Positions 2-19,285 of a stretch of DNA of 20,000 bases are shown piece after piece; position 1 is the first letter of the stretch, and the number at the start of each line of letters is the position of its first letter. Both the position numbers and the translations under genes were made by a program. The notes under the pieces were generated by a model. The model saw only the letters and a list, made by a program, of their open reading frames with translations, ran no database searches and had not been told where the DNA came from. Source of the DNA: an uncultured virus (IMG/VR IMGVR_UViG_3300012007_000017) (lineage: Duplodnaviria > Heunggongvirae > Uroviricota > Caudoviricetes); IMG/VR virus record IMGVR_UViG_3300012007_000017, positions 46,154 through 66,153 of that record, one strand, 5' to 3'.

Positions 2-418
2 ATTATCCCCACTGTCATTGACGGAATCAGGGATGTCATCTACACAGCTACTGATTATATTCTGTACGGCGGTGGACAAAGACACAGCAGGAACAACAGA
101 CGAGGAGGCTCTTACACATCCTACAGTAAGAAGAGCCAGCAGAAGTCAGCTAGACGGAACGCACCTTCATCCTCTTCTTACTATTTCACTTATGATGATC
201 GCGCTACGGCTGACAAGGACCTAGAAAAGATGAGGGACGTTGTCGACCAGAGAGATTTTGTAACCATTATGGATATGTTCTCAATCGCCAAGAGACCTAC
301 CAGCAACTACACCTATAACGACTGGGGCTGGTATGATCTCAGATCGGCGATGGTCAGGAGGACGACGGACGGCAGGTATTATATCGACTTGCCTAAGCCT
401 GTTCCGATTGAGGAGTAA
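2..418 (+). CDS. Conserved phage hypothetical protein, 5'-truncated by the window edge
   Basis: Frame 2 is open from base 2 to TAA at 416-418 (IIPTVIDGIRDV...NYTYNDWGWYDLRSA...YYIDLPKPVPIEE). The track ORF 230..418 is only its C-terminal part. Confidence 0.8.
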   Translation: MIPTVIDGIRDVIYTATDYILYGGGQRHSRNNRRGGSYTSYSKKSQQKSARRNAPSSSSYYFTYDDRATADKDLEKMRDVVDQRDFVTIMDMFSIAKRPTSNYTYNDWGWYDLRSAMVRRTTDGRYYIDLPKPVPIEE

Positions 419-420
419 TT

Positions 421-597
421 ATGAAGTGCCCGTGTAAAGGGTGCGACTTTAGGGATGCAGAATGCCATGCTAATTGCCGATTATATTCTAAATGGAAGAA
501 AGAGCAGGAATCCATTAAGAAGAAAAGGACTTTAGATGCTGTTCTGCATGCCTATTTTAAGCAACCCGAACGTTGGCAAGACCACTGTTTTATGTAG
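421..597 (+). CDS. Small Cys-rich phage protein (58 aa; not in ORF track)
   Basis: GAGGAG RBS at 410-415, ATG at 421. Reads MKCPCKGCDFRDAECHANCRLYSKW... to TAG at 595-597. Confidence 0.75.
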   Translation: MKCPCKGCDFRDAECHANCRLYSKWKKEQESIKKKRTLDAVLHAYFKQPERWQDHCFM

Positions 598-612
598 AAA
601 GGAGAGGCTGAG

Positions 613-2034: not shown

Positions 2035-2628
2035 ATGAAAGTATATATTTCTCCCACAAGACCGGACGTAAGTGAGATTGATGGTAGTTGCACGTACGTA
2101 TTTCTGGCGGGTGGTATAACAAAGTGTTGGGATTGGCAAGACCGATGCTGTGAATTGATTCAGGAAATAGCTAAAGACAATGAGATAAACACGGATAGAC
2201 TGATCATCTTTAACCCTAGAAGATTATCTTTTGATACTGCCAATAAAACCGCTTCTGATGAGCAGATTAAGTGGGAATATGACTATTTAAATTTTTGCGA
2301 TATTTTTAGTATGTATTTCTGCGAGTCAGATAGTGTTCAGCCCATATGTCTCTATGAACTTGGTCATTATATTCCTGGCATTGTGAGTCAATATTCAAAC
2401 TATCAAAAAGCTCTACAGCACATCATAGTAACTGCTGAATCAAATTATGCACGCTGCTATGATGTGGAGAAACAGCTTGAACTGGATCTTGGACGAATTG
2501 AGAAAAGATTGATATTTGATAAAAACGAGCATAGAGAAGAAGCTATAAAATCTCACGCCAGCAGAATTTTGATTGCCTATGAAAGGGATCAGACAAATAA
2601 GGTAATAAAGCGTATAAACATTGTGTAA
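2035..2628 (+). CDS. Nucleoside 2-deoxyribosyltransferase-like protein
   Basis: GGAGGTG RBS. Motifs VFLAGGI..C.DWQ, IFNPRR, EQIKWEYDYL..CD and QPICLYELG are typical of the Nuc_deoxyri_tr2-like family. Confidence 0.8.
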   Translation: MKVYISPTRPDVSEIDGSCTYVFLAGGITKCWDWQDRCCELIQEIAKDNEINTDRLIIFNPRRLSFDTANKTASDEQIKWEYDYLNFCDIFSMYFCESDSVQPICLYELGHYIPGIVSQYSNYQKALQHIIVTAESNYARCYDVEKQLELDLGRIEKRLIFDKNEHREEAIKSHASRILIAYERDQTNKVIKRINIV

Positions 2629-2650: not shown

Positions 2651-2950
2651 ATGGACGAAAATTTATCTAATGTTGGCATTGACGCCGATATGGAAACCAA
2701 AGCGATCATCATCGTAGCTAGGTATATCAAGGAGCATCTCGATAAAACAGACGGCGAAGTATATTTCGATGTTTATACCGTGTGGAAATGCAAGACCATA
2801 CAGAACTGGAAATTCCTTATTAGTTCTTCTCTGCCTGATGGTATGTACTACGAGGTCACATATAACGGGGATAAGGAAGAGTGGTATCTCGATGCCTATA
2901 AGAAGTTCGAGGATCGCTGTATTAAGTCTGGCTATGACGATTATATTTAG
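2651..2950 (+). CDS. DUF6275-like phage protein
   Basis: GGAGGTG RBS, then ATG at 2651. Contains VYTVWKCKTIQNWK.LISSSLPDGMYYEVTYNGDKEEWYLDAYKK. Confidence 0.8.
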   Translation: MDENLSNVGIDADMETKAIIIVARYIKEHLDKTDGEVYFDVYTVWKCKTIQNWKFLISSSLPDGMYYEVTYNGDKEEWYLDAYKKFEDRCIKSGYDDYI

Positions 2951-3370: not shown

Positions 3371-3388
3371 TTATATTTAGGAGGTTCT

Positions 3389-3694: not shown

Positions 3695-4044
3695 CTAACT
3701 GTCCTAACTGTGGGGCTCCGCTTACTGGCCACAAGTGCGAGTATTGCGGGGCCATTATATTTGACTTTGCGGCGATAGAGATCGGTAAGCCAGTATGGAT
3801 TAATTTCAAGATGGGTGATCGTTGGGTGCTAGCTCATGTATTACTGGAGTCAGGCGATATACATGTCGAACCCATGGACGAGTTCATTATGTATGCTGAT
3901 GGAATAGCTCAAGCTACATTCAGAAGACCAGCCCCCGTTAGAATAGAAATGAATTTCATTGAGATTCCGACCGATAAAGGCTATGGGCATATTGTGTCTG
4001 AGAGAAACGTTGTACCATCAATAGATTTGGAGGGATATTTATGA
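3691..4044 (+). CDS. Zinc-ribbon domain protein
   Basis: N-terminal CPNCGAPLTGHKCEYCG, GGAGG RBS, ATGA overlap. Confidence 0.8.
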   Translation: MTNCPNCGAPLTGHKCEYCGAIIFDFAAIEIGKPVWINFKMGDRWVLAHVLLESGDIHVEPMDEFIMYADGIAQATFRRPAPVRIEMNFIEIPTDKGYGHIVSERNVVPSIDLEGYL

Positions 4045-4448: not shown

Positions 4449-4588
4449 TGAGTCCTGATGAAGCTATTGAGGTTTTGAGAAACCTACAGGATTGGTTATA
4501 TTTGTGCTCAATGAATGGCGGCACTAGAATACAGAGAGAGGCGCTCGATATAGCCATAGCTTGCTTGGAGGAGAAGTGTCATGAATAG
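4445..4588 (+). CDS. Small hypothetical protein (47 aa; not in ORF track)
   Basis: GGAGG RBS and ATGA overlap. Reads MMSPDEAIEVLRNLQDWLYLCSMNGGTRIQREALDIAIACLEEKCHE and fills the gap between flanking genes. Confidence 0.75.
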   Translation: MMSPDEAIEVLRNLQDWLYLCSMNGGTRIQREALDIAIACLEEKCHE

Positions 4589-5468: not shown

Positions 5469-5689
5469 CTTACTGGGAAGCAGCTTATATTCTTGAGCAT
5501 GGGTCAACGGATTACGAAAAGATTCGAGAGGCGGGAGCAATAGCATTGAAAGTTATTAAAGAATTGAATAAGAAGCTTGATGAAGCTGAAGCTGCGAATT
5601 TTAGGGAGCCGCCAAAGAGAGGACCGCTTTATGGATCTAACTCCGGTGTGATATTTGTTGATGAGTTTTGCGGGGAGGTTGAAAAATGA
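5465..5689 (+). CDS. Hypothetical protein
   Basis: ATGA overlap and a GAGGG RBS-like sequence. Confidence 0.7.
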   Translation: MTYWEAAYILEHGSTDYEKIREAGAIALKVIKELNKKLDEAEAANFREPPKRGPLYGSNSGVIFVDEFCGEVEK

Positions 5690-5919
5690 AACCAACGCTA
5701 GCAGGATACTTGGAACTGCTGATTAAGGTATTCATGGCCATGATCGCCCTTATATTTTGGGGAGTCCTGATCGCTGTGGTTGCCATGGCGGTTCCATTTT
5801 TATTAAGTCTTATTTGTGTATTGGCTCTGGCTTCGGCTGGAGCTTTTGTTTTTAGCTGGGAATATGTGTGGGTCGGGACAATATTCTTTTTAATCCTGAT
5901 TGGTATAGCGATGGAGTGA
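5686..5919 (+). CDS. Small integral membrane protein
   Basis: GGAGG RBS, ATGA overlap, almost entirely hydrophobic. Confidence 0.75.
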   Translation: MKPTLAGYLELLIKVFMAMIALIFWGVLIAVVAMAVPFLLSLICVLALASAGAFVFSWEYVWVGTIFFLILIGIAME

Positions 5920-5926
5920 TTATATT

Positions 5927-6159: not shown

Positions 6160-6192
6160 CATTATATTTTTAAAAACGAAAGGAGAAAAATC

Positions 6193-6330: not shown

Positions 6331-6356
6331 TTATATTTAGAAAGGAGATCGAAACT

Positions 6357-6539
6357 ATGAAGACATTTTTCTACGGTGTAAAACTCGGTGCAGGACTGGT
6401 AGCAGGCAAGGTTATCATCACAGCGGCAGCTTACGTGGCACTGAGAGCTGTGTTCGGCATGGATGGGCTTAATTATATTCTCGGCAGAGGACCTAAGCCC
6501 AGCTGGATGAAAGGCCAGGAAGAGCCTAAAGTCGAGTGA
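6357..6539 (+). CDS. Small membrane protein (60 aa)
   Basis: AAAGGAG RBS, then ATG at 6357, in frame with track ORF 6216..6539. Reads MKTFFYGVKLGAGLVAGKVIITAAAYVAL... Confidence 0.75.
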   Translation: MKTFFYGVKLGAGLVAGKVIITAAAYVALRAVFGMDGLNYILGRGPKPSWMKGQEEPKVE

Positions 6540-6546
6540 TCTAATA

Positions 6547-6565
6547 TTACAGCTCCTATAGTAGA
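6547..6565 (+). promoter_or_regulatory. Putative phage-specific promoter/operator, copy 2 (TTACA-GCTCC-TATAGTAGA)
   Basis: Intergenic, upstream of AGGAGG. Aligns without gaps to copy 1, including GAGTGAT 13 nt upstream. Confidence 0.55.
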
Positions 6566-9639: not shown

Positions 9640-12600
9640 ATGCTTGACTTTATAAAAATTAAAACCAAGGTAAACAAGGACGCCTCCATCGAAGTTTCAC
9701 CTGATTATATTTGCAACAAGAAAGTCAGCGATGTAATGATTCGTGGCGGAGCTTTCTATGCTATCTGGGACGAAGCGCTCGGACTCTGGTCTACAGATGA
9801 GCACGACGTCTTTAGGCTGGTTGACAACGAACTCTGGCATAAGGTCGAGGAGTTGAAGCAGAAGTACGGAACGGATCGTAATTATATTGTCAAGACCATG
9901 TCCGAATTCTCTACCAGCAAACTCACCGACTGGAAGAAGTATCTTAAGGCTAGTCCAGACCTCTATCACGAATTGGATAGTACTGTAACTTTCCGTGATG
10001 ACGAGGTTGCCAAGGAAGACTATGTAAGTAAGCGCTTGCCTTATTCATTGTCTAACGGTCCAACACCTTGCTATGATACTCTGATGAATACATTATATTC
10101 TGAGGAGGAGAGAGACAAGATTGAGTGGGCTGTTGGTTCTATATTGACTGGCGACTCTCGTAAGATACAGAAGTTCCTTGTCCTGTACGGTGAAGGAGGT
10201 ATCGGTAAGGGAACAGTTCTGAGAATAGTGGAGGCTATATTTCAGGGCTATACAATTTCCTTTAACGCAAAGTCTCTTACGTCAAGTAATAACCAGTTTG
10301 CCTTATCTCAGTTTAGGTCAAATCCTTTGGTCGCTATTCAGTTTGACGGCAAGCTTAACAGAATTGAAGACAATACGCTCTTAAATAGCCTTGTTGCTCA
10401 TGAACCCATGACTGTAAACGAGAAGTATAAAGCTCAGTATGATGCTTGCTTCTCGACTTTTTTATTTATGGGTACCAACAGTCCGGTGGCTATTACGGAT
10501 GCTAAGTCTGGATTGATCAGAAGGCTTATTGATGTTCAGCCAACTGGTAAACTTCTTCAGCATGATGTTTATGACAGAGCCACGAACGGAGTTAAGTTTG
10601 AACTTGGCGCTATTGCTCAGCATTGTATCGACAGGTATAAGGAAATGGGCATTAGTTATTATGACAAGTACAAACCGACCAGCATGTTCAGCGCTACCAA
10701 TGACATGTATAACTTTGTCTATGATAATTATGACGAGTTCAATGCAGAAAATTATATTACTCTTAAACATGCCTGGACTCTGTACAAGGATTATGTGGAA
10801 GAAGCCAAGCTGTCATATCCTATGAGTCTTCGAGTCTTTAAATCGGAACTAGCTAACTATTTCGAAAAGTTTACCGAGAGAGCCAGAGTCGGTAACGGAG
10901 AACGCATTCGCAATGTCTATCAAGGATTTAAAACCGACAAGTTTCAGATTCGAGAAGACTTTGTGGATGATTATATTCCCATTGAAGAGCTTGAGGCTAA
11001 GGAAGCAGAAGCTGAGAAGGTAACAATGCCCTTCGATTGGCTCAATCTGGACAAGACAGAGAGTTCTCTTGATTATATTCTTGCAGACTGTCCTGCTCAG
11101 TATGCTAAAGAAGATGGAACTCCTGAGAAGCCATGGGACAGAGTTACTACGAAGCTTAGGGATTTGGATACGTCCAAGGTTCATTACATTTTGTTACCCG
11201 ACGGGCATATCATTATCGACCTTGATCTTAAGGACGAAGATGGCAACAAATCCATGAAGCTTAACCTGGAGTATGCCAAGAAGTTCCCTCCGACTTATGC
11301 TGAGTTCAGTAAAAGCGGAGGCGGTATCCATTTGCATTATGTTTATGACGGAGATGTTAATGCGTTACGCCGTATGTATGATGACAATGTGGAAATCAAG
11401 GTGTACAGAGGAAATGCATCGCTCAGAAGGAGGCTGAGTTATTGCAACGATGTTCCGATTGCTACTATCAGCAGCGGACTGCCAACGAAAGGAGACACCA
11501 CAACTATGCTTAATGTTGACAGCATTAAGAGTGAGGCGCAGTTGCGGAGTCTGATTAAGAACTGTTTGGCGAAGAAACATCACGGACACACAACGCCTGA
11601 GGTTAATTATATTTTCTCAGAGCTGGAGAAAGCCTATAACAATGGCGTGTCTTATGATGTTACTGACCTGCGCCCCAAAATCAGGTCTTTTGCGCTTAAC
11701 AGCCATAATCAGCCCAAACAGTGTATGCGCCTTGTAGGCAAGATGAAGTTCAAATCCAAGGACTTCGAAGAGAAAGACCTGAATCCTGAAGTACGGACAT
11801 TGCCTGAGAGCTGGGTCAAAGCTGTGATCAAGGATCATGACCAGCCTGACGATTACGAAGAAGCCAAAGCGAAAGAAGATTCTTCTAAACCCCTTGTTAT
11901 ATTTGACATTGAGGTTTTCCAGAATCTTCTTTTAATTTGCTGGAAAAAACTCGGCAAGGAAAATCCTGTAATGACCATGATTAATCCTACGCCTCAGGAA
12001 GTTTCTGACTTTGTGGAGAAGTACAGACTCATTGGCTTCAACTGCAGAGGATACGATAATCATATTTTGTATGCTCGTATTCTTGGCAATGATAATATGG
12101 CTATCTACAAGGTATCTCAGAGTATTATCAACAACACTTTCAATGGCTATGGTCCTGCCTACAGAATTTCTGAAGCTGATATTTATGATATTTGCAAGAA
12201 GAAACAGGGCTTGAAGAAGTGGGAGATTGAGCTCGCTGAGAAAGGTCTATTGGTGCATCACCAGGAGCTTGGCTTCAGATGGGATGAGCCGGTCCCTGAA
12301 GATCAGTGGGGTGTTGTTGCTGAGTATTGTGCCAACGACGTTATCGCTACAGAAGCCGTTTGGGATGCGAATCAGGAAGACGTTAAGGCTCGTATGGCTC
12401 TGGCTAAGATTAGCGGTTTGAGCATCAATGAGCGTAACAGAGCGCATGCGGCACGGATTATATTTGGGAACAATAAGAATCCTAAGCTTGTCTATACTAA
12501 ATTGGCTACAGGTGAAAGAAGCGATGGAACCATGGACATCGCTTGCTTCCCTGGCTATGAGTACAGGTCGGAAGGCTTTGATCATGATGATTATATTTCC

Positions 12601-13743
12601 AAAGTAATCACTGGTAAGTCAATGTATAAGAAGCACGACCCGGGAGAAGGCGGCTTTGTGTATGCTGAACCCGGCATTCACAGGAATGTTGCTCTCTTAG
12701 ATATTGCTTCAATGCATCCGTCGAGCATTATTGCTCTGAATCTCTTTGGGGAATACACTCAGAGATTCAAGGAGATAGTTGATGCTCGTCTGGCTATTAA
12801 GCACAGAGATACTGAGAAGCTCAAGACTCTGCTTGGTGGCGCTCTTATGGATGCTATAGGAAGCGACGAGGACATGGATATTTTGTCTGATGCGCTAAAG
12901 CTGGTAATCAACAGTGTCTATGGCTTTACCACAGCTACGTTTGATAATCCTTTTAAGGATCCCAGAAATATCGATAATATTGTTGCTAAGCGCGGTGCCT
13001 TATTTATGGTTGACCTCAAAGAGGAAGTCCAGAAGAGAGGCTACACGGTTGCTCATATTAAGACAGATTCTATCAAGATCCCGAATGCTACGCCTGAGAT
13101 TATTGAGTTCGTCATGGAGTTCGGCAAGAAGTATGGCTATAACTTTGAGCATGAAGCCACATATGAAAAGATGTGCCTCATGAACGATGCTGTTTATATT
13201 GCCAAGTACGACATGAAAGGGCAGCGTAACAAAGGCGGAAAGCATGCTGGAGAATGGACAGCAACAGGAAAGCAGTTTCAGGTTCCTTATGTATTCAAGA
13301 GCTTGTTCAGTCATGAGCCTATCGAGTTCAAGGATCTTTGTGAAACAAGATCGGTGTCGACCGCGATGTATCTTGACATGAATGAACAGCTTAAGGACGG
13401 CGAACACAATTATATTTTCGTTGGTAGAGTTGGTCAGTTCTGTCCTATTAAGCCTGGTTGCGGTGGCGGAGAATTACTTAGAGAAAGCAAAGAGCGTGAC
13501 AAATTTAGCGCTGTTGGAGGCACTAAGGAATTCAGATGGCTTGAGTCCGAAACGGTTAAGACTTTGGGAAAAGAAGTTGATATCGATCGGGAATATTACA
13601 AGCGGCTTGTTGACAGAGCTGTAGAAGATATTTCTAAACTTGGGGACTTTGAGTCCTTTGTATCGGAAGGCGTTGATGATTATGTCAGCGCCGTTCCTTT
13701 TATGAACGCACCGGAGACTAACGATGATGAAGTCCCGTTCTAA
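9640..13743 (+). CDS. Fused SF3 (D5-like) helicase / AEP primase / 3'-5' exonuclease / family-B-type DNA polymerase
   Basis: Helicase: Walker A GEGGIGKGT (about 10189) and motif C FMGTN. Primase: IIDLD (about 11218) and SKSGGGIHLHY. Exonuclease: FDIE, GFN..YD, YCANDV. PolB motifs: DIASMHPS, KLVINSVYG, KTDS. Confidence 0.9.
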   Translation: MLDFIKIKTKVNKDASIEVSPDYICNKKVSDVMIRGGAFYAIWDEALGLWSTDEHDVFRLVDNELWHKVEELKQKYGTDRNYIVKTMSEFSTSKLTDWKKYLKASPDLYHELDSTVTFRDDEVAKEDYVSKRLPYSLSNGPTPCYDTLMNTLYSEEERDKIEWAVGSILTGDSRKIQKFLVLYGEGGIGKGTVLRIVEAIFQGYTISFNAKSLTSSNNQFALSQFRSNPLVAIQFDGKLNRIEDNTLLNSLVAHEPMTVNEKYKAQYDACFSTFLFMGTNSPVAITDAKSGLIRRLIDVQPTGKLLQHDVYDRATNGVKFELGAIAQHCIDRYKEMGISYYDKYKPTSMFSATNDMYNFVYDNYDEFNAENYITLKHAWTLYKDYVEEAKLSYPMSLRVFKSELANYFEKFTERARVGNGERIRNVYQGFKTDKFQIREDFVDDYIPIEELEAKEAEAEKVTMPFDWLNLDKTESSLDYILADCPAQYAKEDGTPEKPWDRVTTKLRDLDTSKVHYILLPDGHIIIDLDLKDEDGNKSMKLNLEYAKKFPPTYAEFSKSGGGIHLHYVYDGDVNALRRMYDDNVEIKVYRGNASLRRRLSYCNDVPIATISSGLPTKGDTTTMLNVDSIKSEAQLRSLIKNCLAKKHHGHTTPEVNYIFSELEKAYNNGVSYDVTDLRPKIRSFALNSHNQPKQCMRLVGKMKFKSKDFEEKDLNPEVRTLPESWVKAVIKDHDQPDDYEEAKAKEDSSKPLVIFDIEVFQNLLLICWKKLGKENPVMTMINPTPQEVSDFVEKYRLIGFNCRGYDNHILYARILGNDNMAIYKVSQSIINNTFNGYGPAYRISEADIYDICKKKQGLKKWEIELAEKGLLVHHQELGFRWDEPVPEDQWGVVAEYCANDVIATEAVWDANQEDVKARMALAKISGLSINERNRAHAARIIFGNNKNPKLVYTKLATGERSDGTMDIACFPGYEYRSEGFDHDDYISKVITGKSMYKKHDPGEGGFVYAEPGIHRNVALLDIASMHPSSIIALNLFGEYTQRFKEIVDARLAIKHRDTEKLKTLLGGALMDAIGSDEDMDILSDALKLVINSVYGFTTATFDNPFKDPRNIDNIVAKRGALFMVDLKEEVQKRGYTVAHIKTDSIKIPNATPEIIEFVMEFGKKYGYNFEHEATYEKMCLMNDAVYIAKYDMKGQRNKGGKHAGEWTATGKQFQVPYVFKSLFSHEPIEFKDLCETRSVSTAMYLDMNEQLKDGEHNYIFVGRVGQFCPIKPGCGGGELLRESKERDKFSAVGGTKEFRWLESETVKTLGKEVDIDREYYKRLVDRAVEDISKLGDFESFVSEGVDDYVSAVPFMNAPETNDDEVPF

Positions 13744-13773
13744 TGATTATATTTCTAGAAAAGGAGAAAGATT

Positions 13774-14316: not shown

Positions 14317-14344
14317 TTATATTCTAGGAGTGATTATATTCTAG
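14311..14344 (+). repeat. Perfect 17-bp tandem duplication (GAGTGATTATATTCTAG x2)
   Basis: Copies at 14311-14327 and 14328-14344 span the SSB stop codon and the whole gap to the helicase ATG. Confidence 0.95.
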
Positions 14345-15547
14345 ATGAGCTTTGAATTAAGAGAACACCAAAAAGCCGCACTCAAAAAGATGCGGAATGG
14401 TTGTATTCTGAATGGTTCTGTCGGCTCTGGTAAGTCTCTTACATCGCTCGCGTATTATTATATTTACATTTGTGGAGGTTCTTTGGAAACTTGGACAATC
14501 AAGAAACCAAAGGACCTCTATATTATTACGACTGCGATGAAGCGAGACCGTAAAGAATGGCCTGTTGAGCTCATACAGTTTGGCTTGCTTGAAGGCGCTA
14601 ACGACAACGGAATTAACGTAAAGGTCGATAGCTGGAACAATATCGGCAAGTACGTCCAAGCCAGTGGCGCCTTCTTTATATTTGATGAACAGCGAGTAGT
14701 CGGCAAAGGGGCATGGGTTAAAGCCTTTCTCTCCATTACTAAGAAGAATGAGTGGATTCTTTTGTCTGCTACTCCTGGTGATAATTTCATGGATTATTGT
14801 CCTGTTTTTATTGCTAATGGCTTTTATAGGAATCGAACCGACTTCATTAAGCAACATGTGATTCCTAAGCCATATGTCAAGTATTGGGCTGTGGACCGCT
14901 ATGTGAATGTGAGGAAATTATATTATTACAGAGACAAGATTCTCGTGCCTATGGATTTTGAGAGGAACATAGAGTATCACCATATGGACGTGATTGCTCC
15001 ATATTCATCGTCACTCTACAAGACTGTTCTTAGAGACCGATGGCATATTTACGAGAACCGTCCCGTAATTAACGCCAGTGAGCTGTGCTATCTGCTAAGA
15101 AGAATAGTTAATAGCGATGAGCGAAGGCTGAATATGGTTTCGGACTTGCTTGACACGCATCAGAAGGCGATTATATTTTTCAACTTCACTTATGAGGCCA
15201 ATCTGCTGACCAGACTGTGCAACACAAAAGGAATAGCTGTCGCTAAATGGGATGGCGAAAAGCACGAGCAGATACCCAAAGCAGAACGATGGGCTTACCT
15301 CGTTCAGTACGCAGCAGGCGACAGTGGATGGAACTGCACAGAGACAGACACAATTATATTTTACAGCCAAAACTATTCGTACAAATCAACCGTTCAGGCA
15401 GCAGGACGAATTGATAGATTGAACTCTCCGTTCTCAGACTTATATTACTATCACATTCGTTCTCACGCAGGAATAGACAACGCAATACATCGTGCACTCA
15501 AACAGAAGAAGAAATTTAATGAGAGATCCTTCTGTGGATCTTTGTAG
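14345..15547 (+). CDS. Superfamily 2 (SNF2/DEAD-like) helicase
   Basis: Q motif LREHQ, Walker A GSVGSGKS, Walker B IFDEQ, motif III SATP, motif VI QAAGRIDR. Confidence 0.9.
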   Translation: MSFELREHQKAALKKMRNGCILNGSVGSGKSLTSLAYYYIYICGGSLETWTIKKPKDLYIITTAMKRDRKEWPVELIQFGLLEGANDNGINVKVDSWNNIGKYVQASGAFFIFDEQRVVGKGAWVKAFLSITKKNEWILLSATPGDNFMDYCPVFIANGFYRNRTDFIKQHVIPKPYVKYWAVDRYVNVRKLYYYRDKILVPMDFERNIEYHHMDVIAPYSSSLYKTVLRDRWHIYENRPVINASELCYLLRRIVNSDERRLNMVSDLLDTHQKAIIFFNFTYEANLLTRLCNTKGIAVAKWDGEKHEQIPKAERWAYLVQYAAGDSGWNCTETDTIIFYSQNYSYKSTVQAAGRIDRLNSPFSDLYYYHIRSHAGIDNAIHRALKQKKKFNERSFCGSL

Positions 15548-15627: not shown

Positions 15628-15638
15628 GGAGAAGAAAC

Positions 15639-15929
15639 ATGCTTGAAAGTAAATTCAAGACGAAACTTATCAAAGAAATAAAAGTCAGACTTCCAGGTTC
15701 TTTTGTTTTTCATCTAGATCCTTCAGAAAGGCAAGGCGTACCTGACTTAATTGTTTTGTACAAAGACAAGTGGGCTGTCCTTGAAGGAAAGAGAAAGTCT
15801 AAGGCAACGCATCAGCCTAATCAGGATTTCTATGTATGGCTGTTCAATGAGATGTCGTTCGCCAGGATTATATTTCCAGAAAACGCTAAGGAGGTACTAG
15901 ATGAAATGGAACGAGCATTATCGGCTTAA
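15639..15929 (+). CDS. VRR-NUC domain nuclease (probable Holliday junction resolvase)
   Basis: MLES.F...LIKE, GVPDL, LEGK, and PNQ..Y...F..M.FA. Confidence 0.85.
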   Translation: MLESKFKTKLIKEIKVRLPGSFVFHLDPSERQGVPDLIVLYKDKWAVLEGKRKSKATHQPNQDFYVWLFNEMSFARIIFPENAKEVLDEMERALSA

Positions 15930-16464
15930 AGGTCAACATGCGATCTTTAGTCCATCTACTCCAAGCTGGCTTCGCTATGATGAGGCAAAAATCAGAAGCT
16001 TCTTAGAAGCGAAAGAAGCAATGGTTCTTGGCACAAAGCTTCATGACTATGCTTGTCAGAGTATTCAGCTTGGACGCAACTTACCCAAAAGACCTGCTGA
16101 CACTGTATCGCTCTATGTCAACGACGCAATTAAGTACGGAATGACGCCAGAGCAATGCTTATATTTTTCACCAAGTGTCTTCGGACATGCGGATGCTATC
16201 AAATTTGATAGAGGACTCTTACGGATACACGACCTTAAAACAGGCGCGAATCCAGGCAAAATGGATCAGCTGCTAATCTACGATGCCCTGTTCTGTCTTG
16301 AGTATGGATACGATCCTCATAGCATTAAGCACAACTTGAGAATCTATCAGTACGACGACATTAACGAGGTTACGCCTGACCCAGACGAGATTGCACAAAT
16401 CATGGATCAGATTATTCGAGTTGATGACATCAAGACAGAAAGAGAGGAATCGATGTATGAATGA
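15901..16464 (+). CDS. PD-(D/E)XK (Cas4-like/DUF2800-like) exonuclease
   Basis: AAGGAGG RBS. Motifs HA.FSPS, GTKLH, E..LY, FG.ADAI, IHDLKTG and QL.IY. Confidence 0.8.
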   Translation: MKWNEHYRLKGQHAIFSPSTPSWLRYDEAKIRSFLEAKEAMVLGTKLHDYACQSIQLGRNLPKRPADTVSLYVNDAIKYGMTPEQCLYFSPSVFGHADAIKFDRGLLRIHDLKTGANPGKMDQLLIYDALFCLEYGYDPHSIKHNLRIYQYDDINEVTPDPDEIAQIMDQIIRVDDIKTEREESMYE

Positions 16465-19285
16465 ATTATATTCTAGATTAGTTGGACCTTTCTTAAGACA
16501 TGAAGGCAGAGGACGAGACGATCCAAGACTTGCCAGCGAATCTCAAAGAGGTTCTGGTCGTTATCCTAAGGACTCAGGTAAGAATCCTGGACAGCATCAG
16601 GATACTATTCCATGGAGCAGACGAGAAATCGATAGACTACGTGGAGAAGGTATCTCTATGGCTGAAATAGCCGAGATGTATGGCACAAGTCAGAATAAGT
16701 TAAGAGCTTATATTTCTCAGTCTAATGTTGAAAGAATTGCTGATGAAAGAGCCGAATGCATTAGACTCAGTAAAGAAAAAGGCATGTCTATTCGAGATAT
16801 TGCCAAAGAAACAGGTTTAACCCCTACCACTGTTCGAAATCGCCTTGCCGATTACACTCAGGCAAAGATCGATAAAGAAGAGAAGTATAAAGAGATCCTC
16901 AGAGAACAGATTGAAAAACATGGCCATCTCGATGTAGGACTTGGTAATGAGCACAATCTTGGTGTAAGCGAAACCAAGATGAAACAGCTTGTTCAGGCAC
17001 TTAAAGACGAAGGCTATGTCCTTAGTAAACCTCGTATTCCTCAGGCTGGCACCGGTTACGACACGCATTTGCTTGTTCTGTCTAAGAAAGGCACTCCCAA
17101 GAATTATATTTATAACCACATCGAAGAAATCAAGCCGATGGACGATTTAAACATCGTCGATCTTGGAGATGGTCCTAAAAAGAAGGAACTTCATGACCCT
17201 TTAAGTATCGATTCCAAGCGTTGTATGGTTCTTTACAACGAAGAAGGAGGATTAGCTAAAGACGGACTTGTTGAGCTTCGTAGAGGCGTTCCTGAACTCA
17301 ACCTTGGAAAGAGCAACTATGCCCAGGTTCGTATTGTTGTTGATAATTCGCATTATATTAAGGGGATGGCAGTATATTCTGACGATCTTCCCGAAGGTGT
17401 GGATATTCGCTTCAACACTAATAAGCACGAGGGAACGCCTATGCTTGGCGCTGATAAAGACAATACGGTCTTTAAGCCTCTTAAAGGCGAAGGACTGAAT
17501 GGATTTGGCGCTACGATTAGAGACCAGAATGAATGGGTTGATGACAAAGGCCAGACTCATTTTGGCGTTGTCAATATCGTAAAAGAACAGGGCGTTTGGG
17601 CAGACCAGCAGAAGACGCTTGCGTCCCAGTTCTTGAGTAAACAGCCCCATGCTCTAGCTAAAAAGCAGTTACAAATCGATTTGGATAATCGCAAGGACGA
17701 ATTTGACACAATCATGTCCCTTACTAATCCTGCGATTAAACAGCGCATGCTTAAGTCGTATGCTGACGAATGCGATGCTGCCGCAGTTCATTTAAAAGCT
17801 GCCGCAATTCCTAGGCAGGCATGGAATGTTATAATTCCGATGACTACGTTGAAGCCCAACGAAATCTATGCTCCTGGCTTTAAAGATGGCGAAGAAGTGG
17901 TTTGTATCCGATATCCTCATGGCGGTAAATTCGAGCTGGAACAGCTTATTGTTAATAATCGTTGTAAAGAAGGGCAACAGGTTATTGGCAAGACAGCCTT
18001 CGATGCTGTCGGAATCACTAAATCTTCTGCTGATAAGCTTTCAGGTGCTGATTTTGATGGCGACACGGTTCTTGTCATACCGAACCCCAAGCGCCCTACA
18101 AAGAACGGCAAATACACTTATGATATTCAGGTACGGCCCGCTCTTGAGGAGCTTAAGGACTTCGATCCCAAAGAAGAATACAAGGGATATCCTGGAATGA
18201 AGCGCATGTCTAGTGACAACACGCAGAGACAGATGGGAATTATATCTAATCTTATTACGGATATGACCATCCAGGGTGCTGATGACGACGAATTAGCTAG
18301 AGCCGTAAAGCATAGCATGGTCGTTATTGATGCCGAAAAGCATGGATTGGACTATCGTCGGTCATTCAAAGAAAACCGTATTGCTGAACTTAAGAAGAAA
18401 TATCAAAAGGGAGGCGGTGTAGCGACTCTGTTATCCAGAGCAAAAAGCCCTGATATGCAGCCACAGCGCGTGAGTAACCACCCTTATGATATTGACCCCG
18501 AGACGGGCCGTAAGATCTGGAATGTTCAGAAACCTAAGACTTATATTGGTAAGGATGGTCAGGAACATACTATACCCCCTCGCAACTTTAAATCAACCAA
18601 GATGCTTGAGACCGAGGATGCATATACGCTGGTTGGCGATAAAAACAACGTCATTGAAAGAATATATGCAGACTACGCTAATGAGTGCAAAGCACTTGGC
18701 AACCGGGCCCGTAAGGAGTTTCTTAAATCCACTAAAACTGAGAGTATTGAGTACAGCAAAGAGGCTGCACAATTATATTCTAAAGAAGTAGAGGATCTTA
18801 AGGCTAAACTGGTGGTTGCTGAGAAGAATGCACCCAGGGAGAGGGCGGCTCAGCGTCTTGCTGCACAGAAAGTTAAGATGGAAGCTGACGCCAGGGCTCT
18901 TGTCGGCAATGAGATGACCGAGGGAGAGAAACGTAAGCTCCTTGCTAAAGAGATAACCCCTGCTAGACGAATAGTAGGGGCCAAGAAACAGAGAATCATA
19001 TTTACAGATAGAGAGTGGGAAGCCATACAGAGTGGTGCCATTAATAAGACCACCCTCAATAAGCTCCTTAACAATGCTGATGAAGATGACTATAAGAAGC
19101 GGGCCACACCTAAGGAACGTAGAGGTCTTAGCGCTCGTAAAATAGCACTTGTTAAGCAGATGCTGGCAGATATGGACAACCCCAATAGCCGTCTGACCAT
19201 GGAGGATATCGCCAAGTACGTGGGGGTATCTAAGTCAACCATATCCTCCATAAATTTAGGCACCTATCAAGGAGGAAGTGAGTAA
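16457..19285 (+). CDS. Putative single-subunit two-barrel (YonO/cRdRP-like) DNA-dependent RNA polymerase with HTH domains
   Basis: GAGAGG RBS favours ATG 16457 (942 aa). LSGADFDGDTVLV with DFDGD at 18050-18064, upstream IRYPH, two N-terminal HTH-like segments and one C-terminal. Confidence 0.75.
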   Translation: MNELYSRLVGPFLRHEGRGRDDPRLASESQRGSGRYPKDSGKNPGQHQDTIPWSRREIDRLRGEGISMAEIAEMYGTSQNKLRAYISQSNVERIADERAECIRLSKEKGMSIRDIAKETGLTPTTVRNRLADYTQAKIDKEEKYKEILREQIEKHGHLDVGLGNEHNLGVSETKMKQLVQALKDEGYVLSKPRIPQAGTGYDTHLLVLSKKGTPKNYIYNHIEEIKPMDDLNIVDLGDGPKKKELHDPLSIDSKRCMVLYNEEGGLAKDGLVELRRGVPELNLGKSNYAQVRIVVDNSHYIKGMAVYSDDLPEGVDIRFNTNKHEGTPMLGADKDNTVFKPLKGEGLNGFGATIRDQNEWVDDKGQTHFGVVNIVKEQGVWADQQKTLASQFLSKQPHALAKKQLQIDLDNRKDEFDTIMSLTNPAIKQRMLKSYADECDAAAVHLKAAAIPRQAWNVIIPMTTLKPNEIYAPGFKDGEEVVCIRYPHGGKFELEQLIVNNRCKEGQQVIGKTAFDAVGITKSSADKLSGADFDGDTVLVIPNPKRPTKNGKYTYDIQVRPALEELKDFDPKEEYKGYPGMKRMSSDNTQRQMGIISNLITDMTIQGADDDELARAVKHSMVVIDAEKHGLDYRRSFKENRIAELKKKYQKGGGVATLLSRAKSPDMQPQRVSNHPYDIDPETGRKIWNVQKPKTYIGKDGQEHTIPPRNFKSTKMLETEDAYTLVGDKNNVIERIYADYANECKALGNRARKEFLKSTKTESIEYSKEAAQLYSKEVEDLKAKLVVAEKNAPRERAAQRLAAQKVKMEADARALVGNEMTEGEKRKLLAKEITPARRIVGAKKQRIIFTDREWEAIQSGAINKTTLNKLLNNADEDDYKKRATPKERRGLSARKIALVKQMLADMDNPNSRLTMEDIAKYVGVSKSTISSINLGTYQGGSE

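What the first reader, a model, noticed from the sequence alone, without database searches (positions are those of the whole stretch)
55..18779. Window-wide, strictly strand-polarised TTATATT motif (about 49 copies) embedded in genes in all codon phases
Seen: by hand count TTATATT, usually as (G/A/C)ATTATATT(T/C), starts on the + strand at 55, 481, 2367, 2941, 3371, 3755, 4496, 5485, 5750, 5920, 6162, 6331, 6473, 6863, 7263, 7936, 8041, 8671, 8807, 9176, 9705, 9882, 10093, 10752, 10971, 11073, 11607, 11897, 12458, 12591, 13194, 13410, 13747, 14317, 14334, 14458, 14676, 14918, 15171, 15354, 15440, 15868, 16159, 16466, 16708, 17104, 17353, 18541 and 18773, about one per 400 bp. A rough base-composition estimate gives only about 3. 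I found no reverse-complement copy (AATATAA), and none in the very AT-rich tail 19564-20000. Within the polymerase gene alone it is read as D-Y-I (9705), L-Y-S (10093) and V-I-F (11897), so protein sequence does not explain it. Inference: a polar cis signal overlaid on the coding sequence. Candidates are lagging-strand priming sites for the fused primase, loading or processivity sites for the phage RNAP (possibly during transcription-driven genome entry), nicking or modification sites, or an mRNA-level binding or cleavage site (UUAUAUU).
Basis: partly seen in the sequence, partly recalled or inferred. Interest (0 to 1): 0.9.

Follow-up and report, generated by a model that had tools for sequence, protein, structure and literature searches.

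The report
One-strand ATATT signal across phage genes
A seven-letter DNA word is written every few hundred bases on only one strand of this gut phage, on top of its genes, and related phages of very different bacteria carry the same kind of word, so it is a real hidden signal, probably read by a phage enzyme such as its own RNA polymerase.

Summary
TTATATT occurs 49 times on the + strand of the window and never on the - strand. Dinucleotide shuffles give 4.7 and synonymous-codon shuffles 18.4 (max 27).

The window is the right end of a 66-kb cos phage whose long ORFs all lie on +. The whole genome has 75 + copies and 1 - copy. Enrichment starts near the tape-measure gene and is absent from the head genes.

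TTATATT is the local form of an ATATT-core word found across a phage supercluster that shares a YonO-like RNA polymerase:
- ReqiPepy6 has 176 + and 6 - copies; Gordonia DJ has 120/10.
- Streptomyces BI phages, oral contigs, rumen relatives and Clostridia prophages also carry it.

Key properties:
- Copies are conserved between relatives (31 of 37 aligned, against 16-32% of control windows).
- Reverse copies are purged.
- Neighbours closer than about 70 bp are excluded.
- Capsid and tail-tube genes carry none.
- One prophage uses a different word, CCAAAAT(G/A), in the same way.

Best reading (about 35%): short sense-strand initiation sites for the phage RNA polymerase. Rivals: an RNA-level mark, a polymerase pause, primase sites, and nuclease or restriction evasion. 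No description was found in the papers searched.

The parts
55..61 (+). TTATATT copy, in ORF 2-418, codon phase 2
481..487 (+). TTATATT copy, in ORF 421-597, phase 0
2367..2373 (+). TTATATT copy, in ORF 2035-2628 (deoxyribosyltransferase-like), phase 2
2941..2947 (+). TTATATT copy, in ORF 2642-2950, phase 2
3371..3377 (+). TTATATT copy abutting stop codon TAA, followed by AGGAGG; 11 nt before start 3389
3755..3761 (+). TTATATT copy, in ORF 3691-4044, phase 1
4496..4502 (+). TTATATT copy, in ORF 4445-4588, phase 0
5485..5491 (+). TTATATT copy, in ORF 5465-5689, phase 2
5750..5756 (+). TTATATT copy, in ORF 5686-5919, phase 1
5920..5926 (+). TTATATT copy abutting stop TGA, followed by TTACAG; non-coding
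6162..6168 (+). TTATATT copy, non-coding, 24 nt before start 6193
6331..6337 (+). TTATATT copy abutting stop TGA, 19 nt before start 6357
6473..6479 (+). TTATATT copy, in ORF 6357-6539, phase 2
6863..6869 (+). TTATATT copy, non-coding, 22 nt before start 6892
7263..7269 (+). TTATATT copy, in ORF 6892-7842 (DUF6353), phase 2
7936..7942 (+). TTATATT copy, in ORF 7853-8035, phase 2
8041..8047 (+). TTATATT copy, in ORF 8016-8777, phase 1
8671..8677 (+). TTATATT copy, in ORF 8016-8777, phase 1
8807..8813 (+). TTATATT copy, in ORF 8778-9338, phase 2
9176..9182 (+). TTATATT copy, in ORF 8778-9338, phase 2
9705..9711 (+). TTATATT copy in primase-helicase-PolB gene, phase 2 (D-Y-I)
9882..9888 (+). TTATATT copy in PolB-fusion gene, phase 2
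10093..10099 (+). TTATATT copy in PolB-fusion gene, phase 0 (L-Y-S); ATATT kept in 11 of 11 aligned relatives' sequences at this column (col 560)
10752..10758 (+). TTATATT copy in PolB-fusion gene, phase 2
10971..10977 (+). TTATATT copy in PolB-fusion gene, phase 2
11073..11079 (+). TTATATT copy in PolB-fusion gene, phase 2
11607..11613 (+). TTATATT copy in PolB-fusion gene, phase 2
11897..11903 (+). TTATATT copy in PolB-fusion gene, phase 1 (V-I-F)
12458..12464 (+). TTATATT copy in PolB-fusion gene, phase 1 (I-I-F; ATA Ile codon kept in 12 of 12 aligned sequences, col 3063)
12591..12597 (+). TTATATT copy in PolB-fusion gene, phase 2
13194..13200 (+). TTATATT copy in PolB-fusion gene, phase 2
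13410..13416 (+). TTATATT copy in PolB-fusion gene, phase 2
13747..13753 (+). TTATATT copy abutting stop TGA of PolB gene, 20 nt before start 13774
14317..14323 (+). TTATATT copy abutting stop TGA; first unit of a 17-bp tandem duplication
14334..14340 (+). TTATATT copy, second unit of the 17-bp duplication, 4 nt before start 14345
14458..14464 (+). TTATATT copy in helicase gene 14345-15547, phase 2
14676..14682 (+). TTATATT copy in helicase gene, phase 1
14918..14924 (+). TTATATT copy in helicase gene, phase 0
15171..15177 (+). TTATATT copy in helicase gene, phase 1
15354..15360 (+). TTATATT copy in helicase gene, phase 1
15440..15446 (+). TTATATT copy in helicase gene, phase 0
15868..15874 (+). 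TTATATT copy in ORF 15639-15929 (endonuclease-like), phase 1
16159..16165 (+). TTATATT copy in exonuclease gene 15901-16464, phase 0
16466..16472 (+). TTATATT copy at the 5' end of the RNAP gene, phase 0
16708..16714 (+). TTATATT copy in RNAP gene, phase 2
17104..17110 (+). TTATATT copy in RNAP gene, phase 2
17353..17359 (+). TTATATT copy in RNAP gene, phase 2
18541..18547 (+). TTATATT copy in RNAP gene, phase 2
18773..18779 (+). TTATATT copy in RNAP gene, phase 0
16391..19285 (+). Candidate reader 1: YonO-like single-chain RNA polymerase (invariant GADFDGD) with sigma-70 region-4-like HTHs at the N terminus and an HTH at the C terminus. The SD-supported start is 16457.
   Evidence: Pfam HTH families and RdRP PF05183, 23.7 bits against a 23.8 cut-off; phrog_4291, E 5.6e-294; G552-D558 invariant in 13 sequences
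9640..13743 (+). Candidate reader 2: fused D5-like NTPase/helicase, AEP primase-polymerase motifs and family-B DNA polymerase
   Evidence: DUF5906 and DNA_pol_B; phrog_4210, with the N-terminal half matching 'DNA primase' PHROGs; the DLD and SGGGIHLHY motifs are read from the translation, and their meaning is recalled
6547..6562 (+). Separate, classical promoter-like element TTACAG-N4-TATAGT. It is one of about 11 such elements in the genome, and the class is conserved across the supercluster. It is not the TTATATT word.

Best explanation
What is shown. TTATATT is this phage's dialect of a lineage-wide, sense-strand word with an ATATT core (extended consensus here T-R-A-TTATATT-Y). The word is laid over genes by synonymous-codon choice and is also placed next to ribosome-binding sites. 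The core is shared by phages of Actinobacteria and Firmicutes, the flanks differ between clades, and one relative has swapped the word for CCAAAAT(G/A).

What is inferred. The most likely reader is the YonO-like RNA polymerase that marks this phage lineage. The copies would act as very short, weak initiation or re-initiation sites ('mini-promoters') that feed rightward transcription along the one-directional gene array.
- A reversed copy would fire antisense RNA, so it is purged everywhere.
- Two copies within one polymerase footprint add nothing, so neighbours closer than about 70 bp are missing.
- Genes that need no such input, or belong to another expression class, carry none: capsid and tail-tube genes in all genomes checked, and the terminal RNAP gene in six actinophages.

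Status of each step. Shown: polarity, enrichment, purifying selection, counter-selection of reversed copies, spacing exclusion, gene specificity, lineage-wide spread, word switching.
For: Enrichment on the sense strand.
- Window: 49 on + and 0 on -, against 18.4 +- 2.7 (max 27 of 500) under synonymous shuffling.
- Genome: 75 on + and 1 on -, against 34.6 +- 3.3.

Purifying selection on single copies.
- 9 of 10, 7 of 10 and 15 of 17 aligned window copies are intact in three metagenome relatives at 72-78% nucleotide identity. Only 16-22% of all 7-nt windows and 16-32% of AT-rich control windows are intact.
- Pepy6 against Poco6: 107 of 147 aligned sites (73%) against 50-51%.
- In a 12-sequence PolB codon alignment, one site is ATATT in 12 of 12 through the ATA Ile codon.

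Reversed copies are purged. With motif copies frozen and the other codons shuffled, AATAT counts are:
- Pepy6 6 vs 36.0 +- 4.4
- Poco6 8 vs 41.0
- Rickmore 10 vs 29.5
- LibertyBell 2 vs 9.8
- Serenabean 0 vs 6.9
- own 77 vs 114.9
In each, 0 of 150 shuffles are as low. The depletion also holds in regions without + enrichment: Pepy6 0-20 kb has 0 vs about 7, and own 0-25 kb has 12 vs about 29.

Spacing.
- Pooled Pepy6, Poco6 and Rickmore: 0 gaps below 40 bp (56 expected), 3 at 40-60 bp (25 expected), and a 1.2-2.9-fold excess in most 10-bp bins at 90-210 bp.
- Five control 5-mers show no such exclusion.

Expression-like distribution.
- Non-coding density is 4.7-4.8 per kb against 1.4-2.4 per kb coding.
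- Intergenic copies sit 1-3 nt before the SD in own, Pepy6 and Rickmore. In FP_oengus and the CCAAAAT prophage they sit between the SD and the ATG.
- Realised over potential sites: capsid-protease gene 0 of 8-24 in 12 genomes; PolB 23/41 in own and 13/34 in Pepy6; RNAP gene 0 of 94 summed over six actinophages.

Link to the RNAP lineage.
- The word is enriched on + in 14 of 16 genomes examined that carry the RNAP homologue. It is clearly polar in 11 of them.
- It is polar in 30 of 56 genome-contig loci upstream of RNAP homologues.
- The RNAP carries fused sigma-region-4-like HTHs.
- The ATATT/TATATT core resembles the TATAAT block of the lineage's long promoter-like element.

Open in the literature. 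The YonO paper states that YonO's promoter sequence remains to be determined (PMC5467207, passages read).
Against: - 41 of 49 window copies are inside genes, 12 of them spread evenly along the PolB gene. That is unlike any mapped phage promoter set I know of (recalled).
- The base after the core is a pyrimidine: T 46 and C 18 of 75 in own; C 86 and T 65 of 176 in Pepy6. That is a poor start nucleotide if initiation is just downstream.
- Arthrobacter phage Mudcat has the closest RNAP in the phage collection (44% identity) and shows no enrichment. Lactococcus phage P092 also shows none. Both have all core genes.
- A separate, well-formed ~30-bp promoter-like element exists in all members. It stays TATAAT-type in the prophage whose distributed word switched to CCAAAAT. 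The two signals therefore need not share a reader.
- Enrichment inside the tape-measure gene (own 16/37, Pepy6 11/41) would raise transcription of minor tail genes, which is not obviously useful.
- No transcript 5' ends could be examined. All public runs found are kept as contigs.
Confidence: 0.35

Rival explanations
1. An RNA-level mark. The word acts as (U)UAUAUU in the sense transcripts. It would be a binding site for a phage factor (antitermination, protection, translational control) or a cleavage site for an endoribonuclease that tunes the amounts of individual genes within long polycistronic RNAs. Reversed copies are purged because they would mark antisense RNA.
For: - It is restricted to the sense strand and is specific to genes. 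Capsid and tail-tube genes, which I take to be the most heavily translated (inferred), have 0 copies in all genomes checked except the two that lack the word. Long, presumably low-copy genes such as tape measure and PolB are rich.
- Copies sit right at ribosome-binding sites, in different registers in different clades.
- In own, the TT-flanked form occurs from the first long promoter-like elements rightwards, at 30-66 kb.
- The word can switch independently of the TATAAT-type promoter element.
Against: - No candidate RNA-binding protein or RNase was identified among the conserved genes.
- Depletion of the reversed word needs the extra assumption that antisense RNA is made and matters.
- Depletion also holds in regions where the sense word is not enriched.
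- No conserved flanking structure accompanies the word: the +-40 nt profile is flat.
Confidence: 0.25
2. Lagging-strand priming sites. The AEP primase domain of the fused helicase-primase-PolB protein starts Okazaki primers on the + strand template at ATATT(Y), initiating with purines opposite the T/Y run.
For: - The + strand is G-rich throughout. This fits rightward forks with + as the lagging-strand template.
- A 5-8 nt word followed by pyrimidines fits the rule that primases start with a purine on a short template word (recalled).
- The spacing of mostly 90-210 nt with none under 40 resembles the short Okazaki fragments of AEP-primed replication (recalled).
- The fusion protein is present in all members.
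- Word switching is known for primases (recalled).
Against: - A replication signal should cover the whole genome. Enrichment is absent from own 0-15 kb, Pepy6 0-20 kb and the right 12 kb of BI phages.
- It is absent from particular genes in many genomes: capsid gene 0 of 8-24 in 12 genomes, RNAP gene 0 of 94 in six.
- Copies are 2-3.5 times denser in non-coding DNA and sit at ribosome-binding sites.
- Mudcat and P092 have the same fusion protein without the word.
Confidence: 0.15
3. Programmed pause sites for the phage RNAP. A built-in sigma-like module would re-recognise a -10-like word (ATATT against TATAAT) on the non-template strand during elongation. This would slow transcription, for example to keep it in step with translation or with a loading factor.
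For: - Non-template-strand polarity.
- The core differs from TATAAT by one base, and the RNAP has fused sigma-region-4-like HTHs.
- The pyrimidine after the core argues against initiation.
Against: - Pfam finds only region-4-like HTHs and no region-2-like module, and region 2 is the part that reads -10 elements (the role of region 2 is recalled).
- The switched word CCAAAAT is not -10-like, while the TATAAT element is kept.
- Purging of reversed copies is not explained.
Confidence: 0.1
4. A polar DNA signal against host or phage nucleases. It could be Chi-like attenuation of an exonuclease that enters at the right cos end. It could also be one-orientation placement that evades an enzyme needing two inversely oriented sites, the Type III/ISP logic seen with phage T7 and EcoP15I.
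For: - Strict single orientation and genome-wide purging of the reversed word.
- Geometry: a + strand word approached from the right end matches Chi recognition from its 3' side (recalled).
- Density rises toward the right end in own and Pepy6.
Against: - The same core serves phages of Actinobacteria and Firmicutes, whereas Chi is host-specific (host specificity recalled).
- Evasion alone predicts neutral counts on the allowed strand. Observed enrichment is about 2.7-fold in the window, and Pepy6 has 176 copies where only about 15 further copies arise by chance, with conserved positions.
- The 3 kb nearest the right end, the RNAP gene, has no copy in six actinophages.
- Gene specificity and placement at ribosome-binding sites are unexplained.
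Confidence: 0.08
5. No function: a by-product of codon usage, amino-acid content or a strand-biased mutation process.
For: - Phase 2 (xxT-TAT-ATT) is the commonest, 23 of 41 coding copies, and GAT-TAT-ATT (D-Y-I) contributes to the flank consensus.
- All genes are on one strand, so some k-mer asymmetry is expected.
Against: - Synonymous shuffles never reach the observed count: max 27 against 49, and max 42 against 75.
- Copies are conserved at 70-90% where control windows are at 16-32%.
- Spacing exclusion is absent for control words.
- Non-coding copies are the densest.
- A different word behaves identically in another member.
Confidence: 0.01

Closest known systems
Short promoters of virus- or plasmid-encoded RNA polymerases (T7-type promoter sets; the 6-nt upstream conserved sequence of yeast killer plasmids read by a minimal two-barrel RNAP; poxvirus late TAAAT initiators). 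All recalled, none tested here.
   Same: An AT-rich short word in the sense orientation only, placed directly before ribosome-binding sites or start codons. It goes with a lineage-specific polymerase, and the word can change between lineages.
   Different: - Most copies here are inside genes, at one per 200-400 bp.
- They are conserved there by synonymous-codon choice.
- They are spaced with an exclusion zone.
- A separate long promoter-like element coexists with them.
Chi sites (crossover hotspot instigators of RecBCD/AddAB) and their over-representation in some phages (recalled)
   Same: A short, over-represented word on one strand that is read directionally.
   Different: - Chi is host-specific, whereas this core is shared across two bacterial phyla.
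- Chi is G-rich in the species known to me.
- Chi shows no gene specificity, no link to ribosome-binding sites and no reported exclusion zone.
Primase recognition words, for example the 5-nt template sites of phage T7 gp4 (recalled)
   Same: Word length, single-strand reading, 3' pyrimidines, and spacing on the scale of Okazaki fragments.
   Different: Known primase words are not reported as strongly enriched, conserved in position, or missing from particular genes. This word is all three.
FtsK/SpoIIIE orienting polar sequences (KOPS, SRS) and other 'architecture-imparting' skewed oligomers of bacterial chromosomes (recalled)
   Same: Strong strand skew, and selection against the reversed orientation.
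   Different: - Those follow replichore polarity over megabases at one per several kb.
- No FtsK-like translocase was found in the window.
- The density here is 10-50 times higher and specific to genes.
Single-orientation EcoP15I sites of phage T7, an evasion of Type III restriction (recalled)
   Same: All copies of an asymmetric word lie in one orientation.
   Different: That case needs only avoidance of one orientation. Here the allowed orientation is itself enriched and conserved.

Membership tests
Phage RNAP promoters | Lie upstream of genes or operons and are co-oriented with them | tested here: inconclusive
   All copies are co-oriented. Non-coding density is 4.8 per kb against 1.4 per kb coding, and copies sit 4-46 nt before start codons. 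However, 41 of 49 window copies are intragenic.
Phage RNAP promoters | Primary transcript 5' ends map at a fixed distance | not testable with these tools
   The only public runs found are kept as contigs, so no read ends are available.
Phage RNAP promoters | Co-occurrence with the polymerase across genomes | tested here: inconclusive
   Enriched on + in 14 of 16 RNAP-bearing genomes, but absent in Mudcat and P092. Polar in 30 of 56 loci upstream of RNAP homologues.
Chi sites | Sequence specific to the host's RecBCD/AddAB | tested here: not met
   The same ATATT core occurs in phages of Rhodococcus, Gordonia, Streptomyces, Curtobacterium, Faecalibacterium and rumen or oral contigs.
Chi sites | Polar and over-represented along the replicon | tested here: inconclusive
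   Polar and over-represented, but specific to regions and genes.
Primase recognition sites | Located on the lagging-strand template | tested here: inconclusive
   The + strand is G-rich in every 1-kb bin, which fits. No origin was located.
Primase recognition sites | Needed throughout the replicated genome | tested here: not met
   Observed equals expected in own 0-15 kb and Pepy6 0-20 kb. 0 of 94 potential sites are realised in the RNAP genes of six actinophages, and 0 in the capsid genes of 12 genomes.
KOPS/SRS-type translocase-orienting sequences | A cognate FtsK/SpoIIIE-type translocase | tested here: not met
   No such family appears among 19 window proteins in Pfam or 11 in PHROGs. The rest of the genome was not scanned.
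Type III restriction evasion by site orientation | One orientation absent, the other at a neutral level | tested here: not met
   The reversed word is depleted. The allowed orientation is enriched, 49 against 18.4 and 176 against about 15 chance copies, and is conserved.
Site-specific single-strand nicks (T5-, phiKMV-type; recalled) | Nicks mapped at a consensus on one strand; a handful to a few tens of sites | not testable with these tools
   No raw reads are available. The count here, 75-180 per genome, is far above what I recall for those phages.
YonO-like two-barrel RNAP (for the gene at 16391-19285) | Catalytic loop DxDGD within a single ~100-kDa chain, with a distant match to the RdRP family | tested here: met
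   G552-A-D-F-D-G-D558 is invariant in 13 sequences. Pfam RdRP PF05183 scores E 2.4e-5 at 23.7 bits, just under the 23.8 cut-off. phrog_4291 scores E 5.6e-294. bioRxiv 10.1101/842583 (passages read) describes the same protein family. There was no direct comparison with YonO itself.

The most novel reading that the evidence does not exclude
The word would be a 'self-sense' marking system of a whole phage supercluster. A phage-encoded reader with switchable specificity (ATATT in most members, CCAAAAT in one) recognises a short word seeded every 100-400 nt on the sense strand of selected genes.

It could work as an array of minimal re-initiation sites for a sigma-less two-barrel polymerase. It could instead be an RNA-level licence for antitermination or protection that highly translated genes do not need.

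Either way this would be a new layer of gene-dosage control written into synonymous sites, conserved from Actinobacteria phages to gut Clostridia phages.
Probability: 0.3. Interest if true: 0.9.

Novelty: new variant of a known kind. Interest (0 to 1): 0.8.

Why it matters
It would also show that a minimal two-barrel RNAP can work from arrays of 5-8-nt sites inside genes.
This holds in a lineage spanning soil actinophages, dairy and gut phages, and many prophages of gut Clostridia. It affects codon-usage analyses, host prediction, recoding and phage engineering in this group.
- It offers a simple sequence signature (polar word, exclusion zone, head genes spared) to search for in other phages.

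Tried and rejected
- Second repeated word. ACCTCAGTGGAGCA looked like a tRNA D-arm. It is a 15-bp tandem repeat inside an ORF at genome 38366-39058, and aragorn finds no tRNA.
- Gene content. I looked for a gene present only in word-bearing genomes. tblastn of own and Pepy6 ORFs against 16 genomes shows all core genes also in Mudcat and P092, so no candidate emerged.
- Replacement word in genomes without ATATT. I searched Mudcat, P092, Zeina, Linda and Teacup by strand asymmetry, synonymous-shuffle z-scores and a spacing-exclusion scan. None was found. The CTATGG-type asymmetries in Mudcat did not stand out against the shuffle. Linda, Zeina and Teacup keep + enrichment of (C/G)ATATT(C) without - depletion.
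- Transcription polarity against genome polarity. The test needs a relative with inverted genes. The first 50 kb of Arthrobacter phage Qui and the G001 prophage are all rightward, so the test could not be made. My ORF-based search for minus-strand genes in GC-rich genomes was unreliable.
- Link to cos. An ATATTT copy lies 3-27 nt from the left end in several relatives. Pepy6 and Poco6 lack it there and Mudcat has it, so I treat it as part of a variable A/T stretch of the cos region.
- Public reads. All 22 runs listed are contigs, with no starts, ends or strand. The RNA run X18 covers 20 of 30 bins but cannot show transcription or 5' ends. Only 40 of 1,813 differences were printed, and none falls in a copy, which is uninformative.
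- Host sigma-A promoter reading. There is no -35-like partner or any conserved position beyond about 8-11 nt in +-40 nt profiles. A start 7 nt downstream would fall inside the SD (my reading).
- Rho-shield version of the RNA model. The observed gaps, mostly 90-400 nt, are wider than the roughly 80 nt that Rho needs (recalled), so a complete shield is unlikely.
Rfam found no family in the window. A PDB sequence search with the RNAP found nothing meaningful.

Full report
**1.

- 200 dinucleotide-preserving shuffles give 4.71 +- 2.13 for both strands together, with a maximum of 11.
- Against an order-2 Markov model it is the most over-represented 7-mer of the window (49 vs 4.6). ATTATATT is the top 8-mer (35 vs 1.5).
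- I took 34 + strand ORFs that are all open and stop-terminated. 41 of 49 copies are coding, in phases 0/1/2 = 8/10/23. 8 of 49 lie in the 6.8% of the window that is non-coding or overlaps a stop codon.
- 500 synonymous-codon shuffles keep the proteins, each gene's codon usage and the non-coding copies. They give 18.4 +- 2.7, max 27.
- The absence of the reverse complement is not significant in the window alone: 2.2 expected, and 34 of 500 shuffles also have none.

**2. Genomic setting**

- The window is bases 46154-66153 of a single 66,153-bp contig. All long ORFs are on the + strand.
- A sequence at contig positions about 60-150 matches the conserved cos region of the relatives. The relatives' right ends read ...CTGCATCGCCGNCCT and their left ends CC(A/T-rich)CCCCGGGGG.... 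The window's right end is therefore the physical right end of a cos genome.
- The window encodes:
  - a YonO-like RNA polymerase at 16391-19285, with an RdRP-family match, sigma-70 region-4-like HTHs and an invariant GADFDGD;
  - a fused D5-like NTPase, AEP primase and family-B polymerase at 9640-13743;
  - a single-strand annealing or binding protein, an SF2 helicase and two nucleases.
- In the whole genome the word occurs 75 times on + and once on -. There are none before position 21340. Counts per 5 kb rise rightwards: 0,0,0,0,2,1,6,5,11,7,13,14,16.
- The ATATT core without the TT flank is already enriched in the tape-measure gene (17 copies; 14 vs about 6 expected in 15-20 kb). In 0-15 kb the observed count equals the expected count.

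**3. The word is lineage-wide**

- The RNAP has homologues at 35-45% identity in 250 phage records. The hosts are Arthrobacter, Gordonia, Streptomyces, Rhodococcus, Curtobacterium, Microbacterium, Lactococcus 1706-like and Faecalibacterium, plus oral contigs.
- This is the 'supercluster' of bioRxiv 10.1101/842583. Of that paper I read passages only, and in its text 'promoter' occurs 0 times and 'motif' only for protein motifs.
- I fetched 15 relatives. ATATT on + / - is:

| Genome | + / - |
|---|---|
| ReqiPepy6 | 176/6 |
| ReqiPoco6 | 179/8 |
| Gordonia Rickmore | 120/10 |
| Streptomyces LibertyBell | 60/2 |
| Streptomyces Thiqqums | 51/5 |
| Streptomyces Doxi13 | 25/1 |
| Curtobacterium Serenabean | 38/0 |
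| oral contig89 | 44/5 |
| Siphovirus 29632 | 50/3 |
| FP_oengus | 106/47 (TGATATTT 36/2) |
| own genome | 208/77 |
| Teacup | 69/37 |
| Linda | 82/56 |
| Zeina | 65/50 |
| Mudcat | 101/101 |
| P092 | 224/208 |

- Against synonymous shuffles, Linda, Zeina and Teacup still show + enrichment of (C/G)ATATT(C). Mudcat and P092 show none.
- The flanks are clade-specific: TT in own, T[TG] in rumen relatives, TG in oengus, C-[CGT] in actinophages.
- Metagenome relatives found with the PolB fusion repeat the pattern. L069-L073 have TTATATT at 15-33 on + and 0-2 on -; L086 has 49/1; L100 has 32/1.
- An RNAP alignment found 319 relatives in bacterial genomes and MAGs, of which 80 were kept. Many are prophages in Lachnospiraceae and Oscillospiraceae.
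- Of the 56 loci with 10 kb upstream of the RNAP gene, 30 have ATATT at least twice as frequent on + (binomial p < 0.001). 31 have at least 10 T[TG]ATATT on + and at most 2 on -. Some have no polarity, for example L155-L158.

**4. Evidence of selection**

a) Single copies are conserved.
   - Window copies aligned to three relatives at 72-78% nucleotide identity are intact in 9 of 10, 7 of 10 and 15 of 17 cases. All 7-nt windows are intact at 16-22% and AT-rich control windows at 16-32%.
   - Pepy6 against Poco6: 107 of 147 (73%) against 50-51%.
   - In a 12-sequence PolB codon alignment, several columns keep ATATT in 9-12 sequences. One does so through the ATA Ile codon in all 12. Many other sites are lineage-specific, so there is turnover.

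b) The reverse word is purged. With the motif copies frozen and all other codons shuffled, AATAT counts are:
   - Pepy6 6 vs 36.0 +- 4.4
   - Poco6 8 vs 41.0
   - Rickmore 10 vs 29.5
   - LibertyBell 2 vs 9.8
   - Serenabean 0 vs 6.9
   - own 77 vs 114.9
   - oengus 47 vs 66.8

   In each, 0 of 150 shuffles are as low. Own AATATAA is 1 vs 5.0 (2 of 150), and Linda shows no depletion. The same null yields only about 15 chance + copies in Pepy6 against 176 observed. The depletion also holds where + is not enriched.

c) Copies avoid each other.
   - Gaps under 50 bp: Pepy6 1 vs 24.4 expected, Poco6 0 vs 27.0, Rickmore 1 vs 17.0, own 1 vs 7.0.
   - Pooled over Pepy6, Poco6 and Rickmore, there are 0 gaps under 40 bp (56 expected) and parity near 80 bp. 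Most 10-bp bins at 90-210 bp show a 1.2-2.9-fold excess.
   - Control 5-mers show nothing of the kind.
   - The one close pair in the window (14317 and 14334) is a 17-bp tandem duplication. It is missing from contigs of two other runs (table 4).

**5. The distribution is specific to genes**

Counts are realised copies over positions where synonymous codons would allow ATATT.
- Capsid-protease gene: 0 of 8-24 in 12 genomes.
- Tail-tube gene: 0 in the same genomes.
- Tape measure: own 16/37, Pepy6 11/41, Poco6 14/43.
- PolB fusion: own 23/41, oengus 15/43, Rickmore 14/35, Pepy6 13/34, but 0-3 of 23-27 in three Streptomyces phages.
- RNAP gene: own 12/18, but 0 of 94 summed over six actinophages.

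The Streptomyces BI phages are enriched at 0-40 kb and not in their right 12 kb.

Non-coding DNA is 2-3.5 times denser than coding DNA (4.7-4.8 against 1.4-2.4 per kb). Intergenic copies sit 1-3 nt before the Shine-Dalgarno sequence in own, Pepy6 and Rickmore. In own they often directly abut the upstream stop codon. In FP_oengus they sit between the SD and the ATG.

**6. A natural word switch**

One prophage (L112; contig G001:C1, about 8.7-65.8 kb) has no ATATT polarity: 13/17 in the 10 kb upstream of its RNAP gene. It carries CCAAAAT instead.
- There are 71 + copies and 0 - copies between 8.7 and 33 kb.
- The minimum spacing is 85 bp. There are 0 gaps under 50 bp (9.5 expected) and 2 under 100 bp (17.7 expected).
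- The next base is G 46, A 18, C 5, T 2.
- The word is sparse after cos in the structural genes and balanced in the host flanks.
- At gene starts the word fills the SD-ATG spacer.

This shows a dedicated reader whose specificity can change.

**7. A separate long promoter-like element**

All members examined, including Mudcat and P092, carry 2-16 copies (Serenabean had none by my pattern) of a ~30-bp element. Its form is TCGCA-N6-TACAC-N4-TATAATGAGA-cccctacGAAAGGA, and it lies before small genes to the right of the tail genes.
- Own has about 11 copies of TTACAG-N4-TATAAT/TATAGT, one of them at window 6547-6562.
- The CCAAAAT prophage keeps a TATAAT-type version. The long element and the distributed word are therefore separable.

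**8. Interpretation**

- The gene specificity, the placement at ribosome-binding sites and the purging of the antisense orientation point to gene expression rather than replication, packaging or entry.
- A replication-wide primase signal is hard to reconcile with regions and genes that carry none.
- A host factor is unlikely, given the shared core across two phyla together with clade-specific flanks and a switch.
- My best single reading is weak initiation sites for the YonO-like RNAP, at about 35%. This is inferred. YonO's own promoter is unknown according to the YonO paper (PMC5467207, passages read).
- The main difficulties are:
  - the intragenic majority of copies;
  - the pyrimidine after the core;
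  - Mudcat and P092;
  - the independence from the TATAAT element.
- An RNA-level mark (about 25%), primase sites (about 15%), an RNAP pause (about 10%) and nuclease or restriction evasion (about 8%) remain open.

**9. Literature**

I found no description of this word in the following searches, and the claim 'not in print' rests on these alone:
- a full-text search for TTATATT (listing only);
- YonO + promoter + phage (listing);
- ReqiPepy6 (listing);
- YonO + actinobacteriophage;
- strand-biased motif terms;
- cluster and RNA-seq terms;
- passages of the Rhodococcus phage preprint 10.1101/2022.11.23.517428, in which 'motif' and 'promoter' occur 0 times.

The original ReqiPepy6 and phage 1706 papers were not available to me, and supplements were not consulted.

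The comparisons with Chi, KOPS, T7 primase sites, T7/EcoP15I, killer-plasmid and poxvirus promoters are recalled, not tested.

Noticed in passing
window 6547-6562; also genome 34952, 36558, 37785, 37952, 38064, 40175, 40875, 43850, 45010, 45683: A conserved ~30-bp promoter-like element. In own it reads TTACAG-N4-TATAAT/TATAGT-AGG. In actinophages it reads TCGCA-N6-TACAC-N4-TATAATGAGAcccctacGAAAGGA, and in Lactococcus phage P092 TTTTACATACCCTATAATGA. It lies before small genes and is shared across host phyla. It may be the true strong promoter of the phage RNAP or of the host polymerase.
   Followed up: partly
L112 / G001:C1 about 8.7-65.8 kb: A prophage in a Eubacteriales MAG contig uses CCAAAAT(G/A) instead of ATATT as its distributed one-strand word. 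It has 71 + and 0 - copies in 24 kb with the same spacing exclusion, and the counts are balanced in the host flanks.
   Followed up: partly
genome contig positions about 60-150 (outside the window): A cos region conserved with the actinophage relatives: a G/C stem-loop, then ...CCCTGTATCGCGCCGGTCT | TAAATTTTCCCCCGG.... The contig is a circular assembly opened about 118 bp left of cos.
   Followed up: partly
window 827-1480 and 2035-2628: A MazZ-like dATP/dGTP diphosphohydrolase N-terminal domain (E 1.8e-20) and a nucleoside 2-deoxyribosyltransferase-like domain (E 1.9e-14). These hint at nucleotide-pool or DNA-base modification. PurZ or other partners were not looked for.
   Followed up: no
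window 14309-14342: A 17-bp tandem duplication (…GTGATTATATTCTAGGA… twice) creates two adjacent copies of the word before the helicase gene. Contigs of runs X4 and X6 lack one unit.
   Followed up: partly
genome 38366-39058 (outside the window): A 15-bp tandem repeat (GCAGACCTCAGTGGA-like, about 15 units) inside a 230-aa ORF, encoding a pentapeptide repeat.
   Followed up: partly
genome-wide, e.g. genome 8746, 22837, 5004, 10559: A second, weaker one-strand word (T)CAAAATG(G). Own has CAAAATG at 18/4, FP_oengus 31/3, P092 16/1. It occurs partly at start codons and partly inside genes, and it resembles the CCAAAATG word of the L112 prophage.
   Followed up: partly
Pepy6 14.1-19.3 kb (L022) and homologues in DJ, Doxi13, Linda, Zeina: A block of 5-6 genes between terminase and portal is present in several actinophages and absent from own, FP_oengus and P092. 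Their function was not looked up. From memory I suspected a base-modification pathway.
   Followed up: no
records NC_023735.1 and NC_023694.1 (L008, L032): The depositors' notes call the RNAP homologue 'similar to Lactococcus phage 1706 gp75, structural protein'. If true, the polymerase is carried in the virion, as in N4 (recalled). I could not check the source paper.
   Followed up: no
genome 32881-32890: A run of 10 N in the assembly.
   Followed up: no
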